DNA of 38,666 nt from a virus (Duplodnaviria > Heunggongvirae > Uroviricota > Caudoviricetes). Position 1 is the stretch's first letter; every line of letters starts with the position of its first letter. The notes under the pieces were generated by a model that had not been told where the DNA came from, did no database searches, and saw only the letters and a list, made by a program, of their open reading frames with translations. Both the position numbers and the translations under genes were made by a program. Location of the stretch: IMG/VR virus record IMGVR_UViG_2609459854_000001, positions 1-38,666 of that record; one strand, written 5' to 3'. Below, one piece after another: positions 20,813 through 37,566 of this stretch.

Positions 20813-20861
20813 TCACTCAGGGGCGTGGAACCGCGCCCCCTGTTCTGACGGGTGAAGAATC

Positions 20862-21062
20862 ATGATCCTGAAACAAGATCTGAAATGGTCACCGGACGGT
20901 ATGCGTGTTGAGGTCATTCGGGCCGGTGAGTATGACGACGGGGCGCTTCCTGCCCGGGTGCAGGAGATTGCACTTCAGGCCGGGTTAGCAGAGCGCGGAA
21001 CCAGTGCAAAAAGCAGTAAAGCGACAAAAGAGAAAAAAGCCACGACCAGTAAAGAGGGCTGA
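20862..21062 (+). CDS. small hypothetical head-module protein
   Basis: 66-aa ORF between capsid and connector genes; Lys/Ser/Thr-rich C-terminal tail. Confidence 0.35.
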   Translation: MILKQDLKWSPDGMRVEVIRAGEYDDGALPARVQEIALQAGLAERGTSAKSSKATKEKKATTSKEG

Positions 21063-21064
21063 GT

Positions 21065-21388: not shown

Positions 21389-21795
21389 AAATTCGTCAGG
21401 CGCAGACCAGCGCAACCTACATTCTGCCGGACCCCGGTGAACTGAATAAACGCGTCCTGATCCGCCTGCGGGTGGATATGCCCGCGGATAACTTTGGCGT
21501 GGAGCCTCAATACCCGGTTACGTTCCGGACATGGGCGAAGGTTATCCAGACCAGTGCCACCACCTGGCAGGAAACCGCGCAGACCGGGGACGCCATCACC
21601 CATTACATCACCATTCGTTACCGCCGGGGGATCACCGCTGATTATGAGGTGGTCTGCGGTGACAGTGTGTACCGGGTGAAACGTCAGCGCGATCTGAACG
21701 GGGCGCGGCGCTTTCTGCTGCTGGAGTGTACGGAGCTGGGCGAATGTAGGCAGAGTCACGGAGGCAACAATGACGACTTCCTTTTTGCACGTTGA
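21385..21795 (+). CDS. head closure / head-tail adaptor protein
   Basis: 136 aa; position and size after the gp6-like gene. Confidence 0.55.
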   Translation: MKIRQAQTSATYILPDPGELNKRVLIRLRVDMPADNFGVEPQYPVTFRTWAKVIQTSATTWQETAQTGDAITHYITIRYRRGITADYEVVCGDSVYRVKRQRDLNGARRFLLLECTELGECRQSHGGNNDDFLFAR

Positions 21796-22276
21796 TTTTC
21801 AGCAGCCCGCGGAGATGCGCTTTAACCGCGCCCGTGTCAGGCGGGCGTTTGTCACGATTGGTCAGCGTCATATGCGTGATGCCCGTCGGCTGGTGATGCG
21901 CCGTGCGCGGTCGGCACCGGGTGAAAACCCCGGTTATCAGACCGGACGCCTGGCTCGTTCGATTGGTTACATGGTACCCAGAGCAAGTAAACATCGCCCT
22001 GGTTTTATGGCACGTATAGCCCCTAACCAGCGTAATGGAGAGGGAAACCGCCGTATCACCGGTGATTTTTATCCGGCTTTTCTGTTCTATGGCGTGAGGC
22101 GAGGGGCAAAGCGTCGTCGCAGCCATCATCGTGGTGCATCCGGTGGCAGCGGCTGGCGACTGGCTCCACGTAATAACTTTATGGTGGAAACTCTTGAAAA
22201 GAACCGCAGCTGGACACGCTATTTTCTGGCGCGGGAATTGCGTAAATCACTGAAGCCGGAGCGACGACACAGATGA
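21770..22276 (+). CDS. neck / tail-completion protein, putative
   Basis: 168-aa basic protein between head-closure and sheath genes. Confidence 0.4.
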   Translation: MTTSFLHVDFQQPAEMRFNRARVRRAFVTIGQRHMRDARRLVMRRARSAPGENPGYQTGRLARSIGYMVPRASKHRPGFMARIAPNQRNGEGNRRITGDFYPAFLFYGVRRGAKRRRSHHRGASGGSGWRLAPRNNFMVETLEKNRSWTRYFLARELRKSLKPERRHR

Positions 22277-22833
22277 AACTGACGCCTGTTATTGCTGCGC
22301 TGCGTGCCCGCTGCCCGTATTTTGAAAATCGGGTGGCAGGCGCGGCACAGTTCAAAAATCTGCCGGAGGTCGGAAAGCTGAGACTCCCGGCGGCGTATGT
22401 GGTACCGGGTGATGACTCTCCGGGAGAAAACAAAAGCCAGACCGACTACTGGCAGGAGCTGAAAGAGGGCTTCTCCGTGGTTGTCATACTGAGTAACGGG
22501 CGTGATGAGCGCGGTCAGTTTGCCTCGTATGATGTGGTGGACGATGTCCGGCAGATGCTCTTTAAGGCCCTGCTGGGCTGGAACCCGGAAGCGTGCGGTA
22601 ACCCGATTACCTATGACGGCGGCACGCTGCTGGATCTGAATCGTCATGAGCTGATTTATCAGTTCGATTTTTCGGTCATCAGCGAGCTGACTGAAGACGA
22701 TACCCGCCAGCAGGATGATCTGAACAGTCTGGATGAACTGCAAACGCTGGCGATTGATGTTGATTATCTCGAGCCCGGTAACGGGCCTGACGGCGATATC
22801 GAACATCACACCGAAATAACCCTTCCTTCCTGA
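22273..22833 (+). CDS. tail-module protein (Mu gp37-like), putative
   Basis: 186 aa upstream of the sheath; assignment by position. Confidence 0.4.
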   Translation: MKLTPVIAALRARCPYFENRVAGAAQFKNLPEVGKLRLPAAYVVPGDDSPGENKSQTDYWQELKEGFSVVVILSNGRDERGQFASYDVVDDVRQMLFKALLGWNPEACGNPITYDGGTLLDLNRHELIYQFDFSVISELTEDDTRQQDDLNSLDELQTLAIDVDYLEPGNGPDGDIEHHTEITLPS

Positions 22834-22841
22834 GGATCCTC

Positions 22842-23012
22842 ATGTTTGTCAAACCTGTTAAAGGGCGGTCAGTTCCTGACCCTGCCCGCGGTGACCTTTT
22901 GCCCGCCGAAGGGCGAAATGTTGACGAGAACAACTACTGGCTGCGCCGTGAAGCAGCGGGTGATATCCGGCGCGTGAATAAAAAGGTGAACACCGATGAC
23001 GATAAGCTTTAA
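22842..23012 (+). CDS. small protein (56 aa) preceding the sheath gene
   Basis: ATG at 22842, stop at 23010-23012, overlapping the sheath start; below the ORF-track size cutoff. Confidence 0.3.
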   Translation: MFVKPVKGRSVPDPARGDLLPAEGRNVDENNYWLRREAAGDIRRVNKKVNTDDDKL

Positions 23013-24492
23013 CACCATTCCGTCGAATACGCTGGTTCCGCTGTTTTATGCGGAAATGGATAACCAGGCGGCGAATACTGCACAGGACAGCGGAGCATCG
23101 CTGCTGATTGGTCATGCCAATAACGGTGCAGAGATTGTTGCCAACAGTCTGGTGCTGATGCCGTCGGCAGACTATGCACGCCAGATTTGTGGTGCGGGAA
23201 GTCAGCTGGCGCGTATGGTCGAGGCTTATCGCCAGACCGACCCGTTTGGTGAACTGTATGTAATTGCCGTTCCTGAATCCACGGGCGCGGCGGCAACAGT
23301 TACGCTGACGGTGACCGGGGCGGCAACCGAAACCGGCACGGTGAATGTTTATGTGGGACGTACCCGCGTGCAGGCACCGGTGACTAACGGCGATAACGTC
23401 ACGACGATTGCCAGCAGTATCCAGGATGCCATCAATGCCGTTCCGGCCCTGCCGTTTACGGCCTCATCTTCGGCTGGCGTGGTCACACTGACCGCGCGTC
23501 ATAAGGGGCTTTGCGGGAATGAAATTCCTGTCAGCCTCAATTACTACGGCTTTGGTGGGGGCGAAGTGCTGCCTGCGGGCGTACAGATTGCCGTGGCGAC
23601 GGGGACCGCCGGAACGGGCTCTCCTGTTCTCACCGGCGCGGTGGCTGCAATGGCGGATGAGCCGTTTGATTATATCGGCCTGCCGTTCAACGACACGGCC
23701 TCCGTTAACACGCTGGTGACCGAGATGAACGATACCAGCGGTCGCTGGAGCTATGCGCGTCAGCTGTATGGTCATGTGTATACGGCAAAGATCGGCACGC
23801 TGTCAGAACTGGTGACCGCAGGTGACCAGTTTAACCAGCAGCACATTACCCTGGCGGGGTACGAAAAAGAGACCCAGACGCCTGCCGACGAGCTGGCGGC
23901 AAGCCGTACCGCCCGCGCAGCGGTGTTTATCCGCAACGATCCGGCACGTCCCACGCAGACCGGTGAGCTGGTGGGTATGCTGCCTGCGCCGAAGGGGAAA
24001 CGGTTCACGATGACCGAGCAGCAGACCCTGCTGTCTCATGGCGTGGCAACGGCGTATGTCGAAAGCGGGGTGCTGCGCATTCAGCGTGATGTCACCACGT
24101 ACAGGAAAAACGCTTACGGGGTTGCGGATAACAGCTACCTCGACAGCGAGACGCTGCATACCAGTGCGTATGTACTGCGCAAACTGAAATCCGTCATTAC
24201 CAGTAAGTACGGGCGTCACAAGCTTGCCAGCGACGGTACCCGTTTTGGTCCCGGTCAGGCGATTGTCACCCCGGCGGTAATCAAAGGGGAACTGCTGGCA
24301 ACCTACCGTCAGCTTGAGCGTGCGGGGATCGTGGAAAACTACGAACTGTTTAAGCAGTACCTGGTTGTGGAGCGTGATGCCAGCGATCCGAACCGCCTGA
24401 ACACGCTGTTCCCGCCTGACTATGTTAACCAGTTGCGTGTTTTTGCCGTGGTTAACCAGTTCCGTCTTCAGTATTCAGAGGAGTCTGCATAA
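22996..24492 (+). CDS. contractile tail sheath protein (Mu gpL-like)
   Basis: 498 aa; N-terminus MTISFNTIPSNTLVPLFYAEMDN... is typical of Mu-type sheath. Confidence 0.85.
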   Translation: MTISFNTIPSNTLVPLFYAEMDNQAANTAQDSGASLLIGHANNGAEIVANSLVLMPSADYARQICGAGSQLARMVEAYRQTDPFGELYVIAVPESTGAAATVTLTVTGAATETGTVNVYVGRTRVQAPVTNGDNVTTIASSIQDAINAVPALPFTASSSAGVVTLTARHKGLCGNEIPVSLNYYGFGGGEVLPAGVQIAVATGTAGTGSPVLTGAVAAMADEPFDYIGLPFNDTASVNTLVTEMNDTSGRWSYARQLYGHVYTAKIGTLSELVTAGDQFNQQHITLAGYEKETQTPADELAASRTARAAVFIRNDPARPTQTGELVGMLPAPKGKRFTMTEQQTLLSHGVATAYVESGVLRIQRDVTTYRKNAYGVADNSYLDSETLHTSAYVLRKLKSVITSKYGRHKLASDGTRFGPGQAIVTPAVIKGELLATYRQLERAGIVENYELFKQYLVVERDASDPNRLNTLFPPDYVNQLRVFAVVNQFRLQYSEESA

Positions 24493-24848
24493 TGGCCCGT
24501 ATCGGGGGAACCTGTTATTTCAAAATTGACGGTCAGCAGCTATCGCTGACCGGCGGCATTGAGGTGCCCATGAACAGGACGGTCAATGATGACATCATCG
24601 GCCTGGACGGTTCAGTGGACCGCAAGGAAACTCACCGTGCGCCTTATGTCAAAGGGACCTTCAAGGTGCCGAAGAATTTTCCGGTGAGCAAAATCACCTC
24701 GTCTGATGAGATGACCATCACTGCCGAGCTGGCGAACGGTCAGGTCTATGTATTGTCGTCCGCCTGGCTGCACGGAGAAGCGAACCATAATGCCGAAGAA
24801 GGCACGGTTGATCTTGAGTTCCACGGTGAAGAAGGGGATTACCAGTAA
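24492..24848 (+). CDS. tail tube protein (Mu gpM-like)
   Basis: 118 aa immediately after the sheath. Confidence 0.7.
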   Translation: MARIGGTCYFKIDGQQLSLTGGIEVPMNRTVNDDIIGLDGSVDRKETHRAPYVKGTFKVPKNFPVSKITSSDEMTITAELANGQVYVLSSAWLHGEANHNAEEGTVDLEFHGEEGDYQ

Positions 24849-25117
24849 TGAAAGAGCTTGAGTTAAAGAAACCGATTATCGCTCATGGTGAGACACTCTC
24901 CGTACTGGAGTTTGATGAACCCACCGGGAAGGATGTCCGCGAGCTGGGGTATCCCTACCAGATGAATCAGGATGAATCCGTCAGACTTCTGGCGCATGTG
25001 GTGTCGAAATACATTGTGCGGCTGGCGAAAGTGCCGCAAAGCTCTGTCGACCAGATGTCTCCGGCAGACCTGAATGCAGCGGCGTGGCTTGTGGCCGGTT
25101 TTTTCCTCCAGGCCTGA
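24848..25117 (+). CDS. tail assembly chaperone (G-like, zero-frame product)
   Basis: 89-aa ORF between tube and tape measure, ending just after a T_TTT_TTC slippery heptamer. Confidence 0.6.
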   Translation: MKELELKKPIIAHGETLSVLEFDEPTGKDVRELGYPYQMNQDESVRLLAHVVSKYIVRLAKVPQSSVDQMSPADLNAAAWLVAGFFLQA

Positions 25118-25266
25118 CGGCTGAATACCTCACTGATCGCTTCTTTGACTGCGCCAGTTACTGGCGCATTAATCCCTTCGAATTGCTGAATATGCCGATC
25201 AGTGAAATTCCCTTGCTGGTCAGTCAGGCAAACAGGATAGAGCAGGAGAAACGCACACATGGCTGA
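24848..25266 (+). CDS. tail assembly chaperone fusion product via programmed -1 frameshift (GT-like)
   Basis: Slippery heptamer T TTT TTC at 25099-25105; the -1 frame continues as ...FFPPGLTAEY... to 25266, overlapping the tape-measure start. Confidence 0.5.
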
Positions 25267-27094
25267 ATTTGAGCTTAAGGCGTTGATCACCGGTGTCGAC
25301 AGGCTTTCTCCCGCGCTGTCGAAAATGCAAAAGAAAATCCGGGGATTTAAACGCCAGGCGGAAGAAGCGTCACAGGGTGGGCTGGCGCTTGGTGGCGGAC
25401 TGGCTGCGGGTCTGACGCTTTCCCTGAAATCTTATGCCGATCAGGAAAACGCCGCCACCGGGCTGAAAGTTGCCATGATGGATGCGAACGGTGAGGTCGG
25501 AAAGAGCTTTCAGGACATCAATAAACTGGCTATTGGCCTGGGTAACCAGCTACCCGGTACAACGGCTGATTTCCAGAACATGATGCAGATGCTGGTGCGT
25601 CAGGGGATCCCGGCAGAAAACATTCTGGGTGGTGTGGGTAAAGCGACAGCTTATCTTGCGGTACAACTGAAAAAAACACCGGAAGCGGCTGCCGAGTTTG
25701 CCGCAAAGATGCAGGATGCTACCGGAACGGCCTCAGAAGACATGATGGGGCTGTTCGACACAATTCAGAAGGCGTTTTATCTGGGCGTTGACGACACCAA
25801 CATGCTGTCATTCTTCACTAAAACCAGCTCTGTTCTGAAGATGGTGAATAAGGACGGTCTTCAGGCTGCACAGAGTCTTGCCCCCATCAGTGTCATGATG
25901 GATCAGATGGGGATGAACGGGGAGTCGGCAGGTAATGCCCTGCGAAAAGTTATCCAGTCCGGATTAAGCGTTAAGAAAATCAGGGACGTCAATAAAATCA
26001 TGGCCCGCCAGAAACTCGGGGTACAGCTCGATTTTACTGATGGCAAAGGGAGTTTTGGCGGTCTTGATAACATGTTCAGGCAACTGGCAAAGCTGCGAAA
26101 ACTGACCGACGTTAAGCGAACCGGTGTACTTAAGGCAATATTTGGTGATGATGCCGAAACCCTTCAGGTGGTCAATGCTCTGATCGATAAAGGAAAGGAT
26201 GGTTACGATCAGATCCAGCAGAAGATGCATAAACAGGCCAGCCTGAATAAACGTGTTCAGGCACAGCTTGGTACGCTGTCCAACCTGTGGGAGGCAATGA
26301 CGGGGACCGCAACTAACGGTCTTGCAGCTATTGGCGGCGCATTTTCTGGTGACGCTAAAAATATCACGCAATGGCTGGGGGAGTTGGGGGAAAAATTCAC
26401 GAAGTTTGCGGATGAAAATCCCTGGGTTATTCGCGGCGTCGTCGGGCTTGCTGCCGGTCTTGCGATTCTGAAACTGGGATTGATGGGCGTGGGCAGTGCC
26501 ATCAGCATTGTCAGCAGGATCATGTCGATGACGCCGATTGGCATGATTGCGACGGCGATAGCCCTGGCTGCGGGATTAATTATCACTAACTGGGATGTTG
26601 TCGGACCTTATTTCAAGAAGCTCTGGGAAACCATTGGTCCTTATTTTGAGGCTGGCTGGGAACTCCTTAAGAAAGTTTTTGCCTGGTCGCCGCTGGGGAT
26701 GGTGATCAATAACTGGGGGCCGGTTGTTAAGTGGTTTCAGGATATGTGGGACAAGCTGAAGCCAATTATTGAGTGGTTTACCGACAGTTCCGGAGACACG
26801 GTCGATGCCATTAACTCTGCGCAGTGGGGCGCGGGTGCTTATGATGCTTATGGGACGGGAATACCGGCACGGGGATACACACCTTATCCGGCGGTAGATC
26901 TGGCTCAGTCAAACAACGCCTCCGGTGCCACAGGCCCGAATCCCTTCATGATTAATAAAGCTACTGCGCCAAAAGTTGATGGTGAGATCAAGGTCTCTTT
27001 TGTGAATTCGCCTCCGGGTATGCGGGTTATGGAAACGCGATCCAGCGGTTTTGATGTCAGCCATGATGTTGGCTATACGCGCTTTGGCAGGTAA
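25259..27094 (+). CDS. tail tape measure protein
   Basis: 611 aa; helical/Gly-rich with a hydrophobic central region; follows the frameshifted chaperone pair. Confidence 0.85.
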   Translation: MAEFELKALITGVDRLSPALSKMQKKIRGFKRQAEEASQGGLALGGGLAAGLTLSLKSYADQENAATGLKVAMMDANGEVGKSFQDINKLAIGLGNQLPGTTADFQNMMQMLVRQGIPAENILGGVGKATAYLAVQLKKTPEAAAEFAAKMQDATGTASEDMMGLFDTIQKAFYLGVDDTNMLSFFTKTSSVLKMVNKDGLQAAQSLAPISVMMDQMGMNGESAGNALRKVIQSGLSVKKIRDVNKIMARQKLGVQLDFTDGKGSFGGLDNMFRQLAKLRKLTDVKRTGVLKAIFGDDAETLQVVNALIDKGKDGYDQIQQKMHKQASLNKRVQAQLGTLSNLWEAMTGTATNGLAAIGGAFSGDAKNITQWLGELGEKFTKFADENPWVIRGVVGLAAGLAILKLGLMGVGSAISIVSRIMSMTPIGMIATAIALAAGLIITNWDVVGPYFKKLWETIGPYFEAGWELLKKVFAWSPLGMVINNWGPVVKWFQDMWDKLKPIIEWFTDSSGDTVDAINSAQWGAGAYDAYGTGIPARGYTPYPAVDLAQSNNASGATGPNPFMINKATAPKVDGEIKVSFVNSPPGMRVMETRSSGFDVSHDVGYTRFGR

Positions 27095-27154
27095 TGAAAA
27101 ATTAATCTGTTAATGAGTCCCACTCCGGTGGGATTTTTTATGTACGGAGTTTAT

Positions 27155-28483
27155 ATGACGTGGAAAGACAGGCTTCAGGATGCGTCATTTCGAGGTGTGC
27201 CGTTTAAGGTTGAAGAAGAAAGTGCGGGAACCGGCCGTCGTGTGGAAACACACGAATATCCGAACCGCGACAAACCCTATACCGAAGATCTGGGAAAAGT
27301 CACTTTCCGCCCGTCCATCACAGCTTATGTGGTGGGAGATGACTGCTTTGACCAGCGCGATCGCCTGATTGAAGCGCTGAATAAACCCGGTCCCGGCACG
27401 CTTGTCCACCCGACATATGGTGAGCTGAAAGTCTGTGTTGACGGGGAAGTTCGGGTCAGCACATCGAAAAGTGAAGGGCGTATTGTCCGCTTTGACCTGA
27501 AGTTTGTCGAAGCGGGAGAACTCTCTTACCCCACATCAGGTGCGGCGACGGCGCAGACGCTGATGTCATCCTGTTCTGCACTGGATGACTGCATCAGTGA
27601 CAGTTTCAGTGGTTTCAGTATCGATGGCGTGGCAGATTTTGTGCAGAACGACGTCGTCGGTAATGCCGGCACAATGCTTGGGTATATTTCTGATGCGATG
27701 AAAGTGGTGGATTCTGCCGTATCGGATGCCGCCAGGCTGTTGCAGGGGGATATCTCGGTACTTCTGCCGCCGCCATCGTCAGGCAAAAATTTCGTTGAGC
27801 AGGTGCAGAAAATGTGGCGTACCGGGAAACGCCTTTATGGTAACGCCAGCGACCTGGTCACCATGATCAAAACGCTTTCCGGTGTCAGCCTCGGCAGCGA
27901 TCTGCAACCGCGCGGCGTCTGGAAAACGGACAGTAAAACCACCGCCACGGCGACGCAGCAGCGTAACGTGGTTGCCAGCACCCTTCGTACGACCGCAATC
28001 AGCGAAGCGGCGTATGCCGTCACCCGATTGCCTGCGCCAACAACTTCCGCGGTGATGCAGAATGCCGCAGTGGGGCAGGCAACAACAGCTGCGCAGAGCA
28101 CCGGCTGGCCTTCCGTCACGCATCCGGCACTGAACAATGCACCGGCGGTGAAAAACACGGTTGATCTGCCGACGTGGGAAGAACTGACTGACATTCGCGA
28201 CACACTGAATACGGCAATTGATAAGGAGTTGTCCCGTACAACCAGTGATGCGCTGTTTCTGGCGCTGCGCCGGGTGAAAGCAGATCTGAATGCGGATATC
28301 AACACGCGCCTTGAACAGTCTGCACGGATCATTCAGCGCACGCCGGATGAGGTTTTACCCGCGCTGGTGCTGGCGGCGACCTGGTTTGATAACGCGGCGC
28401 GTGACGCGGACATTATCCGGCGTAATGCCATTACGCATCCCGGCTTTGTGCCGGTGATCCCTCTGAAGGTGCCAGTACAATGA
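27155..28483 (+). CDS. DNA circulation protein (Mu gpN-like)
   Basis: Start set at the ATG at 27155 with ACGGAG RBS (MTWKDRLQDASFRGVPFKV...); Mu N-like N-terminus. Confidence 0.7.
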   Translation: MTWKDRLQDASFRGVPFKVEEESAGTGRRVETHEYPNRDKPYTEDLGKVTFRPSITAYVVGDDCFDQRDRLIEALNKPGPGTLVHPTYGELKVCVDGEVRVSTSKSEGRIVRFDLKFVEAGELSYPTSGAATAQTLMSSCSALDDCISDSFSGFSIDGVADFVQNDVVGNAGTMLGYISDAMKVVDSAVSDAARLLQGDISVLLPPPSSGKNFVEQVQKMWRTGKRLYGNASDLVTMIKTLSGVSLGSDLQPRGVWKTDSKTTATATQQRNVVASTLRTTAISEAAYAVTRLPAPTTSAVMQNAAVGQATTAAQSTGWPSVTHPALNNAPAVKNTVDLPTWEELTDIRDTLNTAIDKELSRTTSDALFLALRRVKADLNADINTRLEQSARIIQRTPDEVLPALVLAATWFDNAARDADIIRRNAITHPGFVPVIPLKVPVQ

Positions 28484-29559
28484 ACGATAACGTCACGCTA
28501 CGGGTAAATGGCCGGGAGTGGAATGGCTGGACATCGGTGCGCATCGGTGCCGGTGTTGAACGACTGGCGCGGGATTTCAGTGTGGAGATCCCCCGCCAGT
28601 GGCCGGGAGATGAGGGTATCACCACGCTTCAGCCGCGCATTAAAAACGGTTCAAAAGTGGAGGTGCTGATTGGTGATGAGCTGGTGATCACCGGCTGGGT
28701 GGAGGCGACGCCCGTTCGTTACGATGCCCGTTCGGTCAGCACCGGTATTGCCGGACGCAGTCTGACCGCTGACCTGATTGACTGTGCAGCCGAACCGACA
28801 CAGTTTAACGGACGATCGCTGGTACAGATTGCGCAGGCGCTTGCTGCGCCTTTCGGCATTGAGGTGGTGAACAGCGGTGCGCCGTCGGGTGTTATTCCTG
28901 ATGTCCAGCCTGATCACGGTGAAACGGTGATTGAGGTAATCAACAAAATACTCGGTCAGCAGCAGGCGCTGGCTTATGACGACCCGCACGGCAGGCTGGT
29001 GATTGGCGGTATTGGCTCAACGCGGGCACATACCGCGCTGGTACTTGGGGAAAACATCCTTTCCTGTGATACGGAGAAGAGTATCCGGGAGCGGTTTTCA
29101 GTTTACCAGGTGGCGGGGCAGCGTGCCGGAAACGACGATGATTTCGGTGAGGCCACCACCACCGCGCTGCGGGCCCGCACAGAGGACGCATTTATTGCCC
29201 GTTACCGTCCGATGTATATCAGGCAGACAGGGCAGGCCACGGGGGCAGGCTGTATTGCCCGTGCTGACTTTGAAGCCCGGCAACGGGCGGCGCGGACGGA
29301 TGAAACCACCTATGTGGTGCAGGGCTGGCGACAGGGTAACGGTACGCTGTGGCAGCCCAACCAGCGGGTGATTGTCTTCGATCCGGTCTGTGGTTTCGAC
29401 AATACCGAACTGCTTGTCTCGGAAGTCACGTTTACTCAGGACCAGAATGGCACCCTGACGGAAATCCGTGTCGGCCCACCTGATGCTTATCTGCCTGAAC
29501 CCGAAGCCCCCGGCGCGCGGAAAAAGAAAAAAGCCAGAGTACAGGAGGACCCGTTCTGA
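28480..29559 (+). CDS. baseplate hub protein (Mu gpP-like)
   Basis: 359 aa; position and size in a Mu-type baseplate module. Confidence 0.7.
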   Translation: MNDNVTLRVNGREWNGWTSVRIGAGVERLARDFSVEIPRQWPGDEGITTLQPRIKNGSKVEVLIGDELVITGWVEATPVRYDARSVSTGIAGRSLTADLIDCAAEPTQFNGRSLVQIAQALAAPFGIEVVNSGAPSGVIPDVQPDHGETVIEVINKILGQQQALAYDDPHGRLVIGGIGSTRAHTALVLGENILSCDTEKSIRERFSVYQVAGQRAGNDDDFGEATTTALRARTEDAFIARYRPMYIRQTGQATGAGCIARADFEARQRAARTDETTYVVQGWRQGNGTLWQPNQRVIVFDPVCGFDNTELLVSEVTFTQDQNGTLTEIRVGPPDAYLPEPEAPGARKKKKARVQEDPF

Positions 29560-30107
29560 TGAAGGCGATTGAAACCATACAGCGACAACTCCTCGGCCTG
29601 ATTGGGCGGGCGGTGGTGAAAAGCATCAGTGCCGCCACGAAATGTCAGACCGTGGATGTGTCCCTGATTGCCGGTGAACCCAAAGCCGGGGTTGAACATC
29701 TTGAACCCTACGGTTTTACCGCAAGGGCAAACAGCGGTGCGGAAGCGGTGGTGTTGTTTCCGGATGGCGACCGTTCTCATGCGGTGGTTGTTACGGTGTC
29801 GGACCGGCGCTACCGCCTGAAAGGGCTGCAGACGGGTGAGGTGGCTGTCTATGACGATCAGGGGCAGTCCGTGACGCTGACCCGGGAGGGGATCGTGGTG
29901 GACGGTGCAGGTAAAACGATCACGTTTCGCAATTCACCTAAAGCACGTTTTGAAATGGACCTTGAAGTGACCGGACAGGTGAAAGACCTGTGCGACTCCG
30001 GCGGCACCACCATGTCAGCGATGCGGCTTGCCTATAACGGGCATCGTCACAGAGAGAACGGTCAGGGCAGTAACACCGACAAACCTGATAAAGCGATGGA
30101 GGCATGA
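29559..30107 (+). CDS. baseplate spike / assembly protein (Mu gp45 / V-like)
   Basis: 182 aa; position after gpP-like gene. Confidence 0.65.
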   Translation: MKAIETIQRQLLGLIGRAVVKSISAATKCQTVDVSLIAGEPKAGVEHLEPYGFTARANSGAEAVVLFPDGDRSHAVVVTVSDRRYRLKGLQTGEVAVYDDQGQSVTLTREGIVVDGAGKTITFRNSPKARFEMDLEVTGQVKDLCDSGGTTMSAMRLAYNGHRHRENGQGSNTDKPDKAMEA

Positions 30108-30532
30108 TGGAACTGTGGCTGACGGTGAACGGTAAACGCACCTGCGCCAGCGCACCGCTGGATCCGCTGACCCGCGCCGTGGTGATTTCCCTGTTTACCT
30201 GGCGGCGGGCGGAGCCTGATGACAATGCCGACGTCCCGATGGGATGGTGGGGGGATACCTGGCCTGCGGTACAGAATGACCGTTACGGCTCCCGACTGTG
30301 GCTGCTTCAGCGCAGCAAACTGACCAATCAACTGGTGCAGACGGTAAGGGGGTATATCCGCGAATGCCTGCAATGGATGATTGATGACGGCGTGGTGTCC
30401 CGTATTGATCTGGATATCCGCCGCACCGGGATTAATGAACTGGGTAACAGTATCACTCTCTGGCGTCGTGACGGACCGGTAATGATTTCTTTTGATGATC
30501 TGTGGAGTGCGATAACGCATGGCGGACAGTGA
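30104..30532 (+). CDS. baseplate protein (Mu gp46 / W-like)
   Basis: 142 aa; overlapping starts and stops typical of a baseplate operon. Confidence 0.6.
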   Translation: MMELWLTVNGKRTCASAPLDPLTRAVVISLFTWRRAEPDDNADVPMGWWGDTWPAVQNDRYGSRLWLLQRSKLTNQLVQTVRGYIRECLQWMIDDGVVSRIDLDIRRTGINELGNSITLWRRDGPVMISFDDLWSAITHGGQ

Positions 30533-31577
30533 ATTTCAGCGCCCGACGCTGGCAGAAAATATCAGTATGCTCCGTAACGATTTATTCGCCAGGCTGGACG
30601 TCAGCGACACGCTCCGGCGCATGGATGAAGACGTGCGGGCAAAGGTGTATGCGGCGGCGCTGCATACGGTTTACGGGTACATCGATTATCTGGCAATGAA
30701 CATGCTGCCTGACCTGTGCGATGAGTCCTGGCTGGCGCGACATGCTGCGATGAAACGGTGTCCGCGCAAGGGGGCCACGGCTGCCAGCGGGTATATGCGC
30801 TGGGAAGGTGTCAGCGATGGCCTGAAGGTGACCGCCGGAAGTGTTATTCAGCGCGATGACCTGGTTCAGTACACGGCAACTGCCGATGCAACCAGCACCG
30901 GTGGTGTCCTGCGCGTGCCGATCGCCTGCTCAAGTGCAGGCGCGGTCGGTAACGCTGACGACGGTACGTCATTAATCCTGGTCACGCCGGTTAATGGTCT
31001 GCCGTCTTCCGGCGAGGCAGATACCCTGACAGGTGGATTTGATATTGAAGAGCTGGAAACGTGGCGCGCCCGCGTCATTGAGCGGTATTACTGGACGCCT
31101 CAGGGCGGGGCTGACGGGGACTATGTCGTCTGGGCTAAAGAAGTGCCCGGCATTACCCGCGCATGGACATACCGACACTGGATGGGAACGGGGACTGTCG
31201 GTGTGATGATAGCCAGCAGTGACCTGATTAATCCCATTCCGGAAGAATCAACGGAAACGGCGGCAAGACAACATATCGAGCCACTGGCCCCGGTGGCAGG
31301 CTCTGATTTGTATGTGTTCAGGCCGGTGGCACATACGGTGGATTTTCATATCCGTGTGACGCCGGACACACCGGAAATACGGGCTGCCATCACCGCGGAG
31401 TTGCGTTCGTTCCTGCTGCGTGATGGTTATCCGCAGGGAGAACTGAAGGTATCGCGTATCAGTGAGGCGATTTCCGGTGCGAACGGGGAATACAGCCATC
31501 AGTTGCTTGCACCGGCAGACAATATCTCCATTGCAAAAAATGAACTGGCGGTACTGGGGACGATTTCATGGACGTGA
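30519..31577 (+). CDS. baseplate J-like protein (Mu gp47-like)
   Basis: 352 aa; baseplate J family architecture and position. Confidence 0.8.
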
Positions 31578-32152
31578 CAAACGATGATTACATCCGTCTG
31601 TTGTCGGCACTGTTGCCCCCCGGTCCGGCGTGGTCAGCCAGCGATCCGGCGATTGCCGGTGCGGCACCGTCATTATCCCGCGTTCATCAGCGTGCGGATG
31701 CCCTGATGCGGGAGCTGGATCCGCGCACCACCACTGAACTGATAAACCGCTGGGAGCGTCTGTGCGGTCTGCCGGATGAATGTATTCCCGCAGGGACACA
31801 GACCCTTCGCCAGCGTCAGCAACGGCTGGATGCGAAGGTTAACCTGGCGGGCGGCATCAACGAGGATTTTTATCTTGCACAGCTTGCTGCCCTGGGCAGA
31901 CCAGATGCCACCATCACGCGATACGACAAAAGCACGTTCACCTGCTCATCGGCCTGTACTGACGCTGTGAACGCGCCTGAATGGCGGTATTACTGGCAGG
32001 TCAACATGCCAGCCGCCACCAACACCACCTGGATGACATGTGGCGATCCCTGTGATTCCGCACTGCGTATCTGGGGCGACACAGTTGTCGAATGTGTGCT
32101 TAACAAACTCTGCCCGTCGCATACCTACGTAATTTTTAAATATCCGGAGTAA
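31568..32152 (+). CDS. baseplate/tail protein (Mu gp48-like)
   Basis: 194 aa between J-like and tail-fibre genes. Confidence 0.6.
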
Positions 32153-32155
32153 TCC

Positions 32156-32794
32156 ATGCATCGTATAGACACGAAAACCGCGCAGAAGGATAAGTTCGGC
32201 GCGGGTAAGAACGGTTTTACCCGTGGTAACCCCCAGACCGGCACGCCTGCCACCGATCTGGATGATGACTACTTTGACATGTTGCAGGAAGAGCTCTGCA
32301 GCGTGGTGGAGGCATCCGGTGCCAGCCTGGAGAAGGGGCGGCATGACCAGCTGCTTACCGCGCTTCGTGCGCTGCTGTTAAGTCGCAAAAATCCGTTTGG
32401 CGATATCAAATCGGACGGCACGGTGAAAACGGCTCTTCAAAACCTTGGTTTGGGAGAATTATCTCTGGCTGGCACTGCATCGGGTGTCATTGGTCTGAAT
32501 GGGTATGTAACGATTCCGTTAATTATTTCAGGTTCCCGGAGAACACTGATTATTCAGTGGGGGCAGGCGAGATTTGGTGGGTCTGGTGGTGAAGATGCCG
32601 GATATCTTAATGATTTTCCTTTTGCCTTTCCGTCAGCATGTTATGGAATGATAGTTAGTCATGTGGGGCATACACCTTCAGGCGCAGGAATCCTGTCGGC
32701 TTCTGCAATTACATCAAATCAGTTCCGCGGTTTTTCAAGCATAGCGACTGCTGCAAATGCTGTATTAGGTCGTTATATCGCTATAGGGGGTTAA
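32156..32794 (+). CDS. tail fibre protein (constant N-terminal part fused to the currently expressed variable C-terminal cassette)
   Basis: 212 aa; a recombination crossover site lies at codons 94-101 (NLGLGE), so the C-terminal 112 aa is the invertible cassette. Confidence 0.7.
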   Translation: MHRIDTKTAQKDKFGAGKNGFTRGNPQTGTPATDLDDDYFDMLQEELCSVVEASGASLEKGRHDQLLTALRALLLSRKNPFGDIKSDGTVKTALQNLGLGELSLAGTASGVIGLNGYVTIPLIISGSRRTLIIQWGQARFGGSGGEDAGYLNDFPFAFPSACYGMIVSHVGHTPSGAGILSASAITSNQFRGFSSIATAANAVLGRYIAIGG

Positions 32795-32795
32795 T

Positions 32796-33233
32796 ATGTT
32801 TTATAGTCCATCATTAAACATTTTTGTGAATCCTGCGCTTAAGGATGATTACATTAATGCAAATTCATGGCCAGATGATGCTCTGGCTGTCAGTGATGAT
32901 GTTTATAATGAATTTGCAATCAATACGCCCCCATATGACAAAATTCGTGTTGCAGGAAAAAATGGATTACCCACATGGGCACTAATACCTCCACCATCGC
33001 ATGAAGAACTTATTCAACAGGCAGAATCAGAAAGGCAATTATTGCTTAATCAGGCCAACGAATACATGAACAGTAAACAATGGCCCGGTAAAGCCGCTAT
33101 TGGTCGTCTGAAAGACGAGGAACTGGCACTATATAATTTGTGGCTGGATTACCTGGACGCACTGGAACTGGTGGATACCTCCAGTGCTCCAGATATTGAA
33201 TGGCCTACACCTCCGGTAACTCAGGCCAGCTAA
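32796..33233 (+). CDS. tail fibre assembly protein (current orientation)
   Basis: 145 aa directly after the tail fibre; C-terminal ...EWPTPP... is typical of Tfa chaperones. Confidence 0.7.
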   Translation: MFYSPSLNIFVNPALKDDYINANSWPDDALAVSDDVYNEFAINTPPYDKIRVAGKNGLPTWALIPPPSHEELIQQAESERQLLLNQANEYMNSKQWPGKAAIGRLKDEELALYNLWLDYLDALELVDTSSAPDIEWPTPPVTQAS

Positions 33234-33630
33234 TCTCAGGAGCCGTCGAAGTGTCGACGGCTTTTACTTCTTTTTTGTAGTCCATCCAGGCGGATAGTTT
33301 TTCTTTATCTGTACTGCTGATATCACCAAGCATTAATTCCACTCGCCAGTCAGCTGTGACATTATCGGCATGAGCAAGTAACTGCATTCGCTGATTTTCA
33401 GCACGTGCGACATAATCAATCGCCGGAGATTTCAGTACCGGTAAACCATTTTCATCTGACGTGATTAATTTACCCCCTTCCTGCTGTCCGGCAATTAATT
33501 CATTGTATAAGTCTGTACTTATCTCAACAATGTCAGCAGGCATGTCGCTGTTTATACCATCAAAGAAAAAACCATTAGTCGATTTTGAGAAATAAATCAT
33601 AGATATACCTATACACCGATTGCTACCCAA
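33205..33630 (-). CDS. alternative tail fibre assembly protein (inverted orientation)
   Basis: 141 aa on the opposite strand, convergent with the first Tfa; C-terminal ...ISWPELPEV. Confidence 0.65.
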   Translation of the reverse strand: MGSNRCIGISMIYFSKSTNGFFFDGINSDMPADIVEISTDLYNELIAGQQEGGKLITSDENGLPVLKSPAIDYVARAENQRMQLLAHADNVTADWRVELMLGDISSTDKEKLSAWMDYKKEVKAVDTSTAPEISWPELPEV

Positions 33631-33986
33631 AAACAGGACCTTTCATATTTGACAATTTCTCCCTGAGATATACCGCCAACAATTATATAGAACTGTGATT
33701 TGGTGATATCAGAACAGTTCGCAATGCCCATTGCAGATATACCAGCCAACGACGTTGTATGTGGCACAGCCAACAGCGCAAGTGAACGATTTGGGAATGT
33801 TACCGGGTAAGTCACCGTATAGTTTGATGCTCCACTGACAATACCCCACTGAATAATCAGACCTGAAGGGAGTTTTTGAAAACCCGTTGATGAAAGTGAA
33901 CTGGCAAACGCCGCCATATCCGGAATTTGGTTTTGCCCGTTACCTACATTCCGTTTTGCCGCTTCTCCCAAACCAACGTTTATGAA
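33609..33986 (-). CDS. alternative promoterless tail-fibre C-terminal cassette (Sv-prime-like)
   Basis: Minus-strand frame reads ...FINVGLGE... across the crossover site and continues 120 codons; would fuse to the constant fibre N-terminus after inversion. Confidence 0.55.
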   Translation of the reverse strand, partial: FINVGLGEAAKRNVGNGQNQIPDMAAFASSLSSTGFQKLPSGLIIQWGIVSGASNYTVTYPVTFPNRSLALLAVPHTTSLAGISAMGIANCSDITKSQFYIIVGGISQGEIVKYERSCFWVAIGV

Positions 33987-34042
33987 AATGCAGAAATAAC
34001 GAGAAAATGGCATCATTCCTGCTTTTGTCAGAGGGAGCTACC

Positions 34043-34234
34043 ATGCTTATTGGCTATGTTTGCGTATCAACAAATGACCAGAAAATCGATCTACAACGTA
34101 ATGCGTTTAACTGTGCAGGATGCGAGCTGATTTTTGAAGACAAGATAAGCGGTACAAAGTCCGAGAGCCTAGGGCTGACAGTGCTGTTCTTGATGCAAAT
34201 TAAAGGATTTAATAGTGAGTTGCGGCCTTACTAA
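34043..34234 (+). pseudogene. truncated Gin/Hin/Pin-family serine DNA invertase (N-terminal ~50 codons only)
   Basis: MLIGYVCVSTNDQKIDLQRNAFNCAGCELIFEDKISGTK... matches the invertase N-terminus including the catalytic Ser, then diverges and stops; the rest is replaced by the 3' end of the convergent DUF262/DUF1524 gene. Confidence 0.7.
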
Positions 34235-34267
34235 TGTAAGGCCGCTATAATCATTTTATTAATTGCA

Positions 34268-36157
34268 TTAATCGTATTTTGGCCATACTTTCAATGCAAT
34301 TTCCCCCAACTTTTTACCTCGCTCCAGTATTTCACTCTCATCCCATTTATCCTTAAGTATAAGTGGTATGTTCAGTCGTAGATTGGTGTGGACGATGAGA
34401 GCATCACGTTTTTTCAGAAATACAGCATTCTGAACGGAACGGTTTACGCTAAGGTTAAGCAAAGTTAGATTTCCCAACGTAGCTATCGCTTGTTGCCGTT
34501 TCCTTACCAGTAGCTGTTCAGGGGTAAGATCGGTTCCAGACAGAACAATTTGGTTCATTACCGTAGCATCTGAATTTGTCACCATATGACCATTTTCGAG
34601 AGGCCAACAGGAATACCAACTTTGAGGCATAAGATGATCGATATCGAGATTAGAAAGATTTGGAACATCAGGCTTTTCTGTCTTCACTTGGCGACAAAGT
34701 TCTCTTTCAAGTTCCGTTAACATTGAGCGCATTTTCGGTGCGTCGAGCCTGCCAGGATAAAGTGGAGCATTGATGCAAGCGTTGAGAAATTCTGAGTCCC
34801 CAGGCCAACGTGAGGCTTCGCCATTTAAGCTATTGAGGATATTACGTAACTCAACACTGGAAATTTCCGTTTTAGACAAGTGTCGCAATACATTCATAAA
34901 TACATTGTTGTAATTCTTTGGCGTCAGGCCACATACGGATCTTCGTACTACGTAGGAGACAAGATCATTATACATGGCTGCTTTCTCATCATCGGCGATG
35001 TTAGCTATCGAAATGAACAAAGCAAGCGGATAGAGTGTCGTCACATCATAGGCTGCGATGCGATGTCTAAAGTGTGAGATGGGGGTTGTGCCAAAACCAC
35101 CAACCAATTCTTTATATTGTGATGCATATTGTTTGAGGCGCTTTACTTGCAGATCTGCTCGTTGTGAAGGCAAGTCCTTACTTACATAATCACGATACTC
35201 ATTGTAAAGGCGAGACAGATCAATTTCACGCTGCCTTTCTGATTGCAATGTCGCATGTACAAGCCACTCCATGCGTGGTTTATTAATACGTCCACGGCGT
35301 TGCTTTTCCGACCAGTATTTATCTTCAAAGATCTTCCACTCATTTTCATATAATTCAATAGCATTAATATTTTCATGCTCAGCGCACATAAAGATATAGT
35401 TGCGAATAAGATCCGTTGCATGAAGTTCCGCTCCTCGCCCATTTAATGTTTCAAAAATTATTTGGGCATCATCTTCAGCTTCGAGAAATATGCTTACCAG
35501 TTTCAGATCCGTCAAGACAGCCTCAATTAGTGCTACAGCATTTTCTTGTGGTGAGTGTTTTTCTATTTTAATCCATTTTATAAAGGCTTCAGTAAAAAAC
35601 CATAATGCCTCTAGTGACGGCGGGTGGTTGAAATGTTTACGTAACGTACCATGTTGCGTGAAGCTATCAGAAAATACATTACGGAGATCGTCAATATTAT
35701 CAACATTAAGACTTTGAATAAAATGAGTTTGATCTCGAAAAGTTGGCCACAGTTTGAAGCATTCTACCTTTTTATTTCTCATCGTTGCTTCGTTTGTATT
35801 TTTCAAGCAAGTCAATACTAACCCTTCCAGTTCAGAAAGGCCTGTAGCACGCAATGATAATCGAATGGATGCCAGAATATATTGAAGAGTGGTTAAACGT
35901 TGCTGGCCGTCAATAATATGTATGGTATCTACACCTAACAAGCTGTTTTTGAGTTGAGGTTCCAGCACCACCGCGCCGAGGAAATGAGGGGTTGGTTTTG
36001 TTCCCGAAAGTCGGCTCTGTGCTTTTTCGAAGATATCCTCCAACAAAGCTGACCATTGGTTTCGTTGCGTCCATACGTAGGCACGTTGATAGAATGGAAC
36101 ACGATATTGTCGTTGATTTTGGAAAATTTGCTGGATGGTTAGCGTTTCGGATTTCAT
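34268..36157 (-). CDS. DUF262/DUF1524 (GmrSD-like) type IV restriction endonuclease
   Basis: 629 aa; N-terminal ...FYQRAYVWT...IIDGQQRLTTL... (DUF262 DGQQR motif) and C-terminal ...DIDHLMPQSW...GNLTLLNLSVNRS... (DUF1524 His-Me finger); AT-rich; AGGTAA RBS. Confidence 0.8.
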   Translation of the reverse strand: MKSETLTIQQIFQNQRQYRVPFYQRAYVWTQRNQWSALLEDIFEKAQSRLSGTKPTPHFLGAVVLEPQLKNSLLGVDTIHIIDGQQRLTTLQYILASIRLSLRATGLSELEGLVLTCLKNTNEATMRNKKVECFKLWPTFRDQTHFIQSLNVDNIDDLRNVFSDSFTQHGTLRKHFNHPPSLEALWFFTEAFIKWIKIEKHSPQENAVALIEAVLTDLKLVSIFLEAEDDAQIIFETLNGRGAELHATDLIRNYIFMCAEHENINAIELYENEWKIFEDKYWSEKQRRGRINKPRMEWLVHATLQSERQREIDLSRLYNEYRDYVSKDLPSQRADLQVKRLKQYASQYKELVGGFGTTPISHFRHRIAAYDVTTLYPLALFISIANIADDEKAAMYNDLVSYVVRRSVCGLTPKNYNNVFMNVLRHLSKTEISSVELRNILNSLNGEASRWPGDSEFLNACINAPLYPGRLDAPKMRSMLTELERELCRQVKTEKPDVPNLSNLDIDHLMPQSWYSCWPLENGHMVTNSDATVMNQIVLSGTDLTPEQLLVRKRQQAIATLGNLTLLNLSVNRSVQNAVFLKKRDALIVHTNLRLNIPLILKDKWDESEILERGKKLGEIALKVWPKYD

Positions 36158-36413
36158 TGTTTACCTATAAATAACATTAAGTGACATTCCACAAGAGTAA
36201 GAAATTCATCTGAGTCAGAACAATCATTTTTATGTAGTTATGATACAGTGTATTTGTTACTGGTGAAGTAAAAATAAGAAACCCCGCTTTTGAATGCTGA
36301 CGCGCTACGGTTTCATTGGATATTTTTTGTCTCTCCTCCATCCCGTTGGTGTTCTGTTTAGACTGATAACTTGCTGTTTTAATTGATATTAGTTTCTTGC
36401 GCCGCCCAATCAT

Positions 36414-36439
36414 GGTTGGTGGGTTGGTGGGTTGGTGGG
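36414..36439 (+). repeat. G-rich tandem repeat (GGTTGGTG)x3
   Basis: ggttggtgggttggtgggttggtggg in the AT-rich region upstream of the restriction gene; four GG/GGG tracts. Confidence 0.4.
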
Positions 36440-36975
36440 AGTTAAATCCACATTGGTATGAATAACATAGAATATGAATTAGTGTTTCAGAATTGCTTCA
36501 GCCATCACTTTTTAATACGTTCAATTTGAATGTTTATTTCCGAAACAATTTTTTCAGGTTTCAGTCCCTCGTTAGATTGCACAAAATCTCTAATTTGCAT
36601 CATTCGATGTGCACAAATTTGTAATTCGCTATAAACACTTAGCTCGTCAGATTCATTTTGAGATTGTTCACCTGTTTAAAATTCTACATAAGTATGTGGC
36701 GGATTGTGATAAACACGAGAAATCGGGGTTGGCCACCATTCCTCACCGGTCACTACGTCCGCATCGAATAGTACAGTTTTGTCAATTTCCATTAATTTCT
36801 GGATAAGAACAGAAGTTTTCAAGCGAACCTCCATTTTGCCATAAAGTGGTTATCAAAACGCTACGTAAACTATACAAAATCAGCGAGTTATGGTGAAGGT
36901 AAAAAAACAAGTTTAGATGTTCGTTAAGTATAAAATTGTTTTAATTCAATTGGATATAATAATTTTCTAAATCTA

Positions 36976-37140
36976 ATGTTACGCCATATGGGTTGGACTG
37001 AAGCGGCTGACCTGATTGTTAAAGGTATGGAAGGCGCAATCAATGCGAAGACCGTAACCTATGACTTCGAGCGTCTGATGGAAGGCGCTAAACTGCTGAA
37101 ATGTTCAGAATTTGGTGATGCGATCATCAAGAACATGTAA
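36976..37140 (+). pseudogene. icdC: orphan 3' fragment of isocitrate dehydrogenase gene (icdC-like), marking the prophage right attachment site
   Basis: Encodes [54 protein letters not shown], recognisable as the Icd C-terminus, with no upstream icd body; 165 nt, the length replaced on e14 integration. Confidence 0.75.
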
Positions 37141-37242: not shown

Positions 37243-37566
37243 TTACTTGAGCCCATATGGGCATATTTTTATAATGCAACTATTATGCAAACATTTATTT
37301 GTTATTTTGCTTTCTCCTGGAGGACACTCTTGACTGCTTTTGAGTAGACTCCATAAATCCTTGTTGAATGGTGCGATGTTATAAATAGTAATAGGATATT
37401 CTTTATCTTTAAGGATAATTCCAGATTTAACCGGTGTAAATATACTGCCAGGAGGGAGAAATATAGTAGATTGATACCAGATGATCATTTTCATATTACC
37501 CCATATGGCTGAAAAAGATATGCCGCATGAAGGTTGAATTATCGTGTCAATTACTATCCACTTCAT
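37243..37566 (-). CDS. iraM: IraM-like anti-adaptor protein (host gene)
   Basis: 107 aa, [32 protein letters not shown]...; matches my recollection of E. coli IraM, which lies just beyond icdC in K-12. Confidence 0.55.

What the first reader, a model, noticed from the sequence alone, without database searches (positions are those of the whole stretch)
34268..36157. GmrSD-like type IV restriction gene replaces mcrA at the invertase-proximal hotspot and truncates the invertase
A 629-aa DUF262 (DGQQR motif) plus DUF1524 (HNH-like) fusion, the architecture of GmrSD/BrxU-type modification-dependent nucleases, is convergent with and abuts a tail-fibre invertase cut to about 50 codons. In K-12 e14 the equivalent slot between pin and icdC holds mcrA, a different type IV HNH enzyme. 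This suggests a cassette exchange of one modified-DNA nuclease for another that cost the phage its invertase.
Basis: partly seen in the sequence, partly recalled or inferred. Interest (0 to 1): 0.7.

Follow-up and report, generated by a model that had tools for sequence, protein, structure and literature searches.

The report
Prototype GmrSD restriction gene in prophage
This gene is a near-exact copy (3 amino-acid differences) of GmrSD, a well-studied E. coli enzyme that cuts the sugar-modified DNA of T4-like phages; it sits at the end of a resident prophage beside a long-dead invertase gene, so it is correctly spotted but ordinary.

Summary
ORF 34268-36157(-) encodes 629 aa with Pfam GmrSD_N and GmrSD_C. 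It is convergent with a Pin-family invertase cut after about 49 codons. K-12 e14 has pinE-mcrA in the same place.

The gene is GmrSD itself, not just GmrSD-like. It is 99.5% identical (3 substitutions each) to the prototype CT596 GmrSD and to the biochemically characterised Eco94GmrSD, and every mutagenised catalytic residue is kept. Its position beside tail-fibre genes and a phage invertase in an SfII-like prophage was already published.

The "swap that cost the invertase" is only partly right:
- The same Δpin-hairpin-gmrSD junction is in 301 of the 304 complete E. coli genomes that carry the gene.
- It occurs at three attachment sites at least (icd, ssrA, pao region), between alleles only 93% identical. 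It is therefore one old event, not local to icd.
- A near-identical icd prophage with intact pin-mcrA exists, so the two are alternative cargoes of one slot.
- The tail-fibre segment still flips: 17 genomes in one orientation, 16 in the other. Two sister isolates differ only by this inversion, presumably made by an invertase acting in trans.

Known enzyme, known context, low interest.

The parts
34268..36157 (-). gmrSD coding sequence, 629 aa, single-chain Type IV modification-dependent restriction endonuclease
   Evidence: ORF. Pfam GmrSD_N + GmrSD_C. PADLOC mREase_IV full length, 1516 bits. 99.5% identity to CT596 GmrSD and Eco94GmrSD.
35390..36136 (-). GmrSD_N (DUF262, ParB/Srx-like NTP-binding) domain, aa 8-256; the DGQQR motif lies at 35897-35911
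   Evidence: the motif translation was checked.
34301..34807 (-). GmrSD_C (DUF1524, His-Me/HNH nuclease) domain, aa 451-619; D507-H508...N522 lies at 34592-34639
   Evidence: D507A, H508A and N522A abolish cleavage in Eco94GmrSD (PMC4437046).
34222..34245 (.). 10-bp G+C-rich hairpin (GCGGCCTTAC-TAAT-GTAAGGCCGC) between the two convergent stop codons; likely bidirectional terminator and part of the conserved module
   Evidence: RNA fold -24.1 kcal/mol, z -5.6 on the + strand; -20.8 kcal/mol, z -4.9 on the - strand. Conserved in all four gmrSD loci aligned.
34043..34234 (+). Δpin: 5' stub of a Pin-family serine invertase. Homology to PinE covers codons 1-49 (to 34189), followed by an unrelated tail and a stop. 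The conserved Arg7 is Cys here.
   Evidence: tblastn. Pfam Resolvase positions 2-54 of 145. Alignment with K-12 pinE and three other loci: UTI89 carries a 1-bp deletion and E4 a Thr-to-Ile change, so the stub is not kept as a protein.
32440..33981 (.). Invertible tail-fibre (P) segment bounded by crossover sites 32440-32458 and 33963-33981. It holds two alternative Stf C-termini and two tail-fibre assembly genes.
   Evidence: Inverted repeat I1; its core equals the e14 repeat TTGGTTTGGGAGAA given in PMC12529663. Pfam Gp53-like_C and Caudo_TAP. Precise inversion in L006 and between sister isolates.
36158..36378 (-). Upstream block that travels with gmrSD in all three prophage types; contains a weak sigma-70-like site (TTCACC-16-TATCAT, 36267-36240)
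   Evidence: Shared with UTI89 up to 36378 and with the pao-type loci over 36178-36357. The promoter scan found no more sites than shuffled sequence gives, so the promoter is not established.
36379..36965 (.). A+T-rich arm found only in icd-integrated prophages (the attP-proximal arm); contains an 8-bp variable-number repeat at 36416-36439
   Evidence: Full length in 55 genomes, all next to the icd remnant. From 36323 to the attR end, 87% identical to a different icd prophage in strain 8GC. Absent from K-12 e14.
36976..37140 (+). icdC: the displaced 3' end of icd, marking attR of the prophage
   Evidence: Pfam Iso_dh profile positions 301-348 of 348. 95.8% identical to the K-12 icdC-ycgX stretch. 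Annotated as a partial icd in related genomes.

Best explanation
The gene is gmrSD, the prototype single-chain Type IV (modification-dependent) restriction endonuclease. It is carried as a cargo gene (moron) at the right end of an SfII/e14-family myovirus prophage integrated in icd.

By near-identity to the characterised CT596 and Eco94 enzymes, it should work as follows. The N-terminal DUF262 domain binds and uses NTP. The C-terminal DUF1524 His-Me finger (D507-H508-N522) cleaves DNA that carries glucosyl-5hmC or 5hmC. The lysogen therefore restricts T-even phages unless they inject an inhibitor such as T4 IPI*.

The gene sits in a roughly 2.2-kb low-G+C module (34179 to about 36378). This module once replaced everything downstream of codon ~49 of the tail-fibre invertase gene. 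The junction has since been inherited and passed by recombination among related prophages at three attachment sites at least. In this window the module is joined to an icd-specific attP arm.

The invertase stub is a pseudogene. The tail-fibre segment it once controlled is still inverted, most probably by a Pin-family invertase supplied in trans by another prophage.

Shown here: identity, domains, motifs, the junction and its distribution, and the inversions. Inferred: enzymatic activity of this exact allele, its promoter, and which invertase does the flipping.
For: - Domains and motifs.
- The protein differs from CT596 GmrSD by K200N, R364G, L611Q and from Eco94GmrSD by K200N, R316H, R364G. 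It is 92.85% identical to UTI89_C2960 (using the sequences in Fig. S1 of PMC4437046).
- All residues mutagenised in Eco94GmrSD are kept: E271, E273, E278, K280, D507, H508, N522.
- Published function: Eco94GmrSD cleaves glc-5hmC and 5hmC DNA, is ATP-stimulated, restricts T4 Δip1 by more than 10^6-fold, and IPI* relieves CT596 GmrSD toxicity (PMC4437046).
- The exact protein is on 359 public contigs. The gene is in 304 of 5426 complete E. coli genomes and is chromosomal in all.
- The junction is in 301 genomes. It is the same base for base in icd, ssrA and pao-type loci.
- The structural module is 97-98% identical to phages SfII, SfI, SfIV and SfV.
- The P segment is inverted between prophages whose flanks are 100% identical, with a 17:16 orientation split.
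- PinQ, PinR and PinE are all reported to invert the e14 P segment (PMC12529663).
Against: - No activity was measured for this allele. K200 and R364 are not found in any characterised enzyme.
- The closely related UTI89 enzyme was inactive in vitro (supplement of PMC4437046).
- No convincing promoter was found; the scan gave no excess over shuffled sequence.
- No isolated phage genome in the INPHARED collection carries gmrSD. He et al. could not induce the UTI89 prophage, so the carrier may often be defective.
- The invertase that flips the segment was not identified. In CFSAN061769 and in 22-250 and 22-245 megablast finds no second pinE-like 5' region. That search would miss PinQ/PinR-type genes, which are only 38% identical to PinE at the protein level.
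Confidence: 0.88

Rival explanations
1. One reading: in this icd-integrated lineage a gmrSD cassette directly displaced mcrA, and that same local event cut the invertase.
For: The slot is the same as mcrA in K-12 e14. A 97%-identical full-length icd prophage carries pin-mcrA. pin-mcrA-icdC is in 329 genomes and Δpin-gmrSD-icdC in 54-55, so they behave as alternative states at one site.
Against: The identical Δpin-hairpin-gmrSD junction occurs at ssrA and near paoD, in alleles 93-97% identical, and in 301 of 304 carriers. The junction therefore predates this locus. There is no trace of mcrA or of the pin 3' end. The segment next to attR (36379-36965) is a separate piece shared with an unrelated icd prophage, so the right arm is a mosaic with two joints at least.
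Confidence: 0.1
2. The gene is intact in sequence but silent or enzymatically dead, a decaying passenger of a defective prophage.
For: Purified UTI89_C2960 showed no activity in vitro, and the UTI89 prophage could not be induced. No clear promoter was found. No isolated phage carries the gene.
Against: The 629-codon frame is open in 299 of 304 genomes at full length. The exact allele recurs on 359 contigs. All catalytic residues are kept. The two closest relatives (3 aa apart) are active in vivo. The UTI89 strain itself restricts some T-even phages according to He et al..
Confidence: 0.07
3. The 63-codon Δpin ORF is a functional small protein, for example a dominant-negative regulator of other invertases, rather than a pseudogene.
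For: The stub is retained in essentially all copies. It keeps the start codon and the catalytic-serine motif VSTNDQ.
Against: The catalytic-pocket Arg7 is Cys in the window and in 14EC001. E4 has Thr to Ile. UTI89 has a frameshifting 1-bp deletion. It covers only 42-49 of 184 residues and lacks the dimer helix and the DNA-binding domain. PGAP calls it a pseudogene everywhere.
Confidence: 0.03

Closest known systems
E. coli CT596 GmrSD (GmrS/GmrD; Bair & Black 2007) and Eco94GmrSD (He et al. 2015, PMC4437046)
   Same: Both are 629 aa and 626 of 629 residues are identical to each. They share the DGQQR motif, ExEx4ExK and the D507-H508-N522 motif. Both are prophage-borne beside tail-fibre genes and a phage invertase.
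   Different: The window allele has K200 and R364, where both characterised enzymes have N200 and G364. At one further position each reference stands apart while the window matches the other: 611 is L in the window and Eco94 but Q in CT596, and 316 is R in the window and CT596 but H in Eco94. This allele has not been tested.
UTI89_C2960 (UT GmrSD)
   Same: Same length, same Δpin junction and same upstream block; 92.85% amino-acid identity.
   Different: Its prophage sits at ssrA rather than icd. It is reported to be insensitive to IPI* and to restrict T2 and T6 but not T4. 45 substitutions, concentrated in aa 8-186.
McrA of K-12 cryptic prophage e14
   Same: Occupies the same slot between the tail-fibre invertase and attR (icdC) in the same phage family. 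It is also a Type IV HNH enzyme aimed at modified cytosine.
   Different: No sequence relationship. McrA is 277 aa, is transcribed in the same direction as pin, leaves pin intact, and targets 5mC/5hmC rather than glucosylated hmC.
BrxU (GmrSD-family enzyme in a BREX island) and SspE
   Same: DUF262 + DUF1524 architecture and NTP-stimulated cleavage of modified DNA.
   Different: Only distant similarity. Against solved structures, a single weak hit to a DUF262 protein (9jfl, E 5.8e-07) passed the 0.001 threshold. Different genomic setting and substrate range.
e14 P-segment / Pin inversion system (Gin, Cin, Hin family)
   Same: Same crossover repeats, same stf/tfa layout, and the invertase gene lies immediately outside one crossover site.
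   Different: The cis invertase is reduced to 49 codons, yet inversion continues.

Membership tests
GmrSD family Type IV restriction endonuclease | N-terminal DUF262/GmrSD_N domain with the DGQQR motif | tested here: met
   PF03235 at aa 8-256, E 1.4e-33, 117 bits against a cutoff of 33. DGQQR at aa 83-87.
GmrSD family Type IV restriction endonuclease | C-terminal DUF1524/GmrSD_C His-Me (HNH-like) nuclease domain with the D-H...N catalytic residues | tested here: met
   PF07510 at aa 451-619, E 3.8e-19. D507, H508 and N522 have the same numbering as in Eco94GmrSD.
GmrSD family Type IV restriction endonuclease | Close sequence relationship to an experimentally characterised member | tested here: met
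   99.5% identity to CT596 GmrSD and to Eco94GmrSD. PADLOC mREase_IV matches positions 1-629 of 629 at 1516 bits.
GmrSD family Type IV restriction endonuclease | NTP-stimulated cleavage of glc-5hmC/5hmC DNA but not unmodified DNA; restriction of T-even phages; inhibition by T4 IPI* | not testable with these tools
   Known only for the relatives 3 aa away (PMC4437046).
e14-family (SfII-like) prophage integrated in icd | attR marked by a displaced icd 3' end (icdC) followed by iraM; e14-type integrase | tested here: met
   icdC at 36976-37140 and iraM at 37243-37566. The integrase at 1317-2447 lies within a block 90% identical to the intE region of e14, with Pfam Arm-DNA-bind_1 + Phage_integrase.
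e14-family (SfII-like) prophage integrated in icd | Intact pinE and mcrA at the right end, as in K-12 e14 | tested here: not met
   PinE matches only aa 1-49 and McrA has no match near the right end.
Pin/Gin/Hin serine DNA invertase | Complete resolvase catalytic domain (about 140 aa) plus a C-terminal HTH DNA-binding domain | tested here: not met
   Only Resolvase profile positions 2-54 of 145 match. No downstream remnant in any frame. Arg7 is Cys.
Pin-type invertible tail-fibre segment | Two inverted crossover sites flanking alternative stf C-termini and tfa genes, with both orientations found in nature | tested here: met
   Sites at 32440-32458 and 33963-33981. 17 genomes in the window orientation and 16 flipped. 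Sister isolates differ only by the inversion.
Pin-type invertible tail-fibre segment | Fis-dependent recombinational enhancer about 100 bp from one crossover site, inside the 5' end of the invertase gene | tested here: inconclusive
   By analogy with hin (a 65-bp enhancer about 100 bp from hix; PMC3798978) it would lie near 34070-34140, inside the retained stub. That stretch is nearly invariant in the five sequences aligned. Neither Fis sites nor function were tested.

The most novel reading that the evidence does not exclude
The position of the break in pin may not be arbitrary. The 49-codon stub may be kept because it contains the Fis-dependent recombinational enhancer, which would let invertases from other prophages (PinQ/PinR type) keep flipping this prophage's tail-fibre segment. 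If so, a gmrSD-carrying prophage has outsourced its host-range switch to other prophages. In a lysogen it could pair two anti-T-even functions: GmrSD restriction and, as reported for e14, Stf chimeras that block adsorption.
Probability: 0.25. Interest if true: 0.45.

Novelty: already known. Interest (0 to 1): 0.2.

Why it matters
The direct value is correct annotation. RefSeq labels this gene only 'DUF262 domain-containing protein', although it is the prototype GmrSD allele. A strain carrying this prophage can be expected to resist T-even phages that lack a matching injected inhibitor, which matters for choosing therapeutic or typing phages.

The comparison also gives a clean example of a prophage-end cargo slot. 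The same slot holds mcrA, gmrSD or a type II R-M system in different icd prophages. It also shows that a site-specific inversion switch can outlive its own recombinase gene. Neither point changes current understanding.

Tried and rejected
- A first literature search with 'e14' and 'icd' returned only medical-coding papers, and one query was rejected for an illegal character.
- Bair & Black 2007 is not held by PubMed id, so the CT596 neighbourhood is cited second-hand from PMC4619093.
- NCBIfam gave no hit for GmrSD or for the stub.
- Rfam found nothing in the whole window.
- PDB sequence search gave only a weak DUF262 hit, 9jfl. Structure prediction was not run, because 99.5% identity to characterised enzymes makes it unnecessary.
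- The 78-codon ORF 36177-36413(-) just upstream of gmrSD has no Pfam, PADLOC or PHROG match. It is not annotated in any related genome, and its start lies outside the block conserved with other gmrSD loci. I rejected it as a gene.
- I considered that the module was simply inserted into pin. This is rejected because no pin 3' part lies on the far side.
- I considered that the orientation differences reflect different tail-fibre alleles rather than inversion. This is rejected because the segment aligns at 99.7% on the opposite strand between 100%-identical flanks.
- The species-representative genome scan gave only two relatives (80% and 46% identity). The 80% relative has no Δpin next to it; the context of the 46% relative was not examined.

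Full report
**Observation.**
The window holds an open reading frame at 34268..36157 on the minus strand, encoding 629 aa. Pfam assigns GmrSD_N (PF03235, the former DUF262) to aa 8-256 at E 1.4e-33. It assigns GmrSD_C (PF07510, the former DUF1524) to aa 451-619 at E 3.8e-19. The DGQQR motif is at aa 83-87, and D507-H508...N522 is in place. The PADLOC model 'mREase_IV' matches all 629 positions at 1516 bits.

Convergent with this gene, starting at the ATG at 34043, is the 5' end of a serine invertase. K-12 PinE aligns only over aa 1-49 (34043-34189). No other frame or place in the window encodes the rest of PinE. Between the two stop codons lies a strong 10-bp hairpin at 34222-34245 (-24.1 kcal/mol, z -5.6).

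To the right lie an icd 3' remnant (36976-37140), iraM and ycgX. This is the host side of the e14 attachment site. In K-12 the same interval reads pinE - mcrA - 233 bp - icdC.

**What the gene is.**
It is GmrSD itself, not a distant relative. I took the CT596 GmrSD, Eco94GmrSD and UTI89 sequences from Fig. S1 of He et al. 2015 (PMC4437046) and compared them residue by residue.
- The window protein differs from CT596 GmrSD at 3 positions (K200N, R364G, L611Q).
- It differs from Eco94GmrSD at 3 positions (K200N, R316H, R364G).
- It is 92.85% identical to UTI89_C2960.
- Every residue that He et al. mutagenised is kept: E271, E273, E278, K280, D507, H508, N522.

Eco94GmrSD is an ATP-stimulated nuclease for glucosyl-5hmC and 5hmC DNA. 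It restricts T4 Δip1 more than a million-fold. T4 IPI* neutralises the CT596 enzyme. The exact window sequence is already on 359 public contigs, where it is named only 'DUF262 domain-containing protein'.

**Context already published.**
- Machnicka et al. [quoted passage not shown]
- The window agrees. Its structural module (14800-32400) is 97-98% identical to phages SfII, SfI, SfIV and SfV.

**History of the junction.**
- The gene is in 304 of 5426 complete E. coli genomes, always on the chromosome.
- A probe spanning Δpin, the hairpin and the 3' end of gmrSD is covered in 301 genomes. Essentially every copy has the same truncated invertase.
- The junction is identical in an ssrA-integrated prophage (UTI89), in a prophage beside paoD (14EC001) and in icd prophages. 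The alignment shows this.
- The stub is decaying as a protein: Arg7 is Cys in the window and in 14EC001, E4 has Thr to Ile, and UTI89 has a 1-bp deletion.
- The block shared among all three types runs from about 33915 to 36378.
- The next 590 bp, up to attR, are found only in icd prophages. From 36323 to attR the sequence is 87% identical to an icd prophage with a different tail in strain 8GC. That prophage carries a GIY-YIG protein and a type II R-M system in the slot.
- K-12 e14 has neither block.
- An 80%-identical homologue in Enterobacteriaceae bacterium B14 lies in a non-phage island with no invertase beside it.

The most economical reading is this. A roughly 2.2-kb low-G+C module (41% G+C against 56% for the structural genes) once replaced pin beyond codon 49. 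It has since moved among related prophages by homologous exchange.

**Relation to mcrA.**
The record vB_EcoM-689R6 is a full-length icd prophage. It is 97% identical to the window over the structural genes and carries intact pin and mcrA, 96% identical to those of e14. pinE-mcrA-icdC occurs in 329 complete genomes and Δpin-gmrSD-icdC in 54-55. No relic of mcrA remains, and the truncation did not arise at this locus.

**The switch still works.**
The crossover sites at 32440-32458 and 33963-33981 are intact. Their core matches the e14 repeat reported by the PinQ study.
- In strain CFSAN061769 the 1.55-kb segment is exactly inverted (99.7% on the opposite strand) between flanks that are 100% identical to the window.
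- Synthetic right-junction probes find 17 genomes in the window orientation and 16 flipped.
- Two sister isolates from chicken meat, 22-250 and 22-245, are 100% identical over 18.5 kb of flanks and differ only by this inversion.

PinQ, PinR and PinE have all been reported to invert the e14 P segment, so a trans-acting invertase is the likely agent. I could not identify it.

The Hin enhancer is a 65-bp element about 100 bp from a hix site. By analogy, the equivalent element would lie at about 34070-34140, inside the retained stub. This is an inference, not a test.

**Verdict.**
The enzyme and its neighbourhood are already known. The residual points are incremental: a fixed ancient junction, mosaic right arms, and an orphan but active inversion switch.

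Noticed in passing
window 32440-33981; L006, L011, L012: The tail-fibre invertible segment flips although its own invertase gene is a 49-codon stub. 17 genomes have the window orientation and 16 the opposite one. Sister isolates 22-250 and 22-245 differ only by this inversion across 20 kb.
   Followed up: yes
window 36416-36439: An 8-bp tandem repeat (unit TTGGTGGG) lies about 260 bp upstream of gmrSD in the icd-specific arm. It has 3 copies here and in L007, 4 in L006 and 2 in L001. Match lengths in other genomes step by 8 bp (810 to 850). Its function is unknown, and it lies outside the block conserved with non-icd gmrSD loci.
   Followed up: partly
window 1-960 (-): A 319-aa ORF lies next to the integrase in the left-arm cargo slot, where K-12 e14 has lit/ymfD/ymfE and vB_EcoM-689R6 has a 350-aa DUF262 protein. 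It has no Pfam or PADLOC hit, only PHROG 19461 (unknown function, E 1e-30). It may be another defence cargo.
   Followed up: partly
L004 (strain 8GC) 3002-6858: A different icd-integrated prophage carries a LEM-3-like GIY-YIG protein, a cytosine methyltransferase and a type II restriction endonuclease at the attR-proximal slot. It shares the last ~650 bp before icdC with this window at 87%.
   Followed up: partly
window 5876-16392 and 18131-30789 versus K-12 e14 (L003): K-12 e14 aligns to the window only in four blocks, with the early genes beyond ymfN and most head and tail genes absent. e14 therefore looks like a deletion remnant of a full-length prophage of this type.
   Followed up: partly
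L008 (Enterobacteriaceae bacterium B14) 2399-7644: An 80%-identical GmrSD lies between a 494-aa unknown protein and a partial P4-type integrase, next to mltC and a T6SS ClpV gene. This is a non-prophage context and a possible source of the module.
   Followed up: no
H57, H69, H70 and H171-H172: Some genomes carry disrupted gmrSD copies: one with an IS3 insertion (APEC E12053), one 5'-truncated (IMT5155), and a 3' fragment annotated 'HNH endonuclease family protein' (AHM8C160RI and AHM8C212RI). This is occasional decay of the gene.
   Followed up: no
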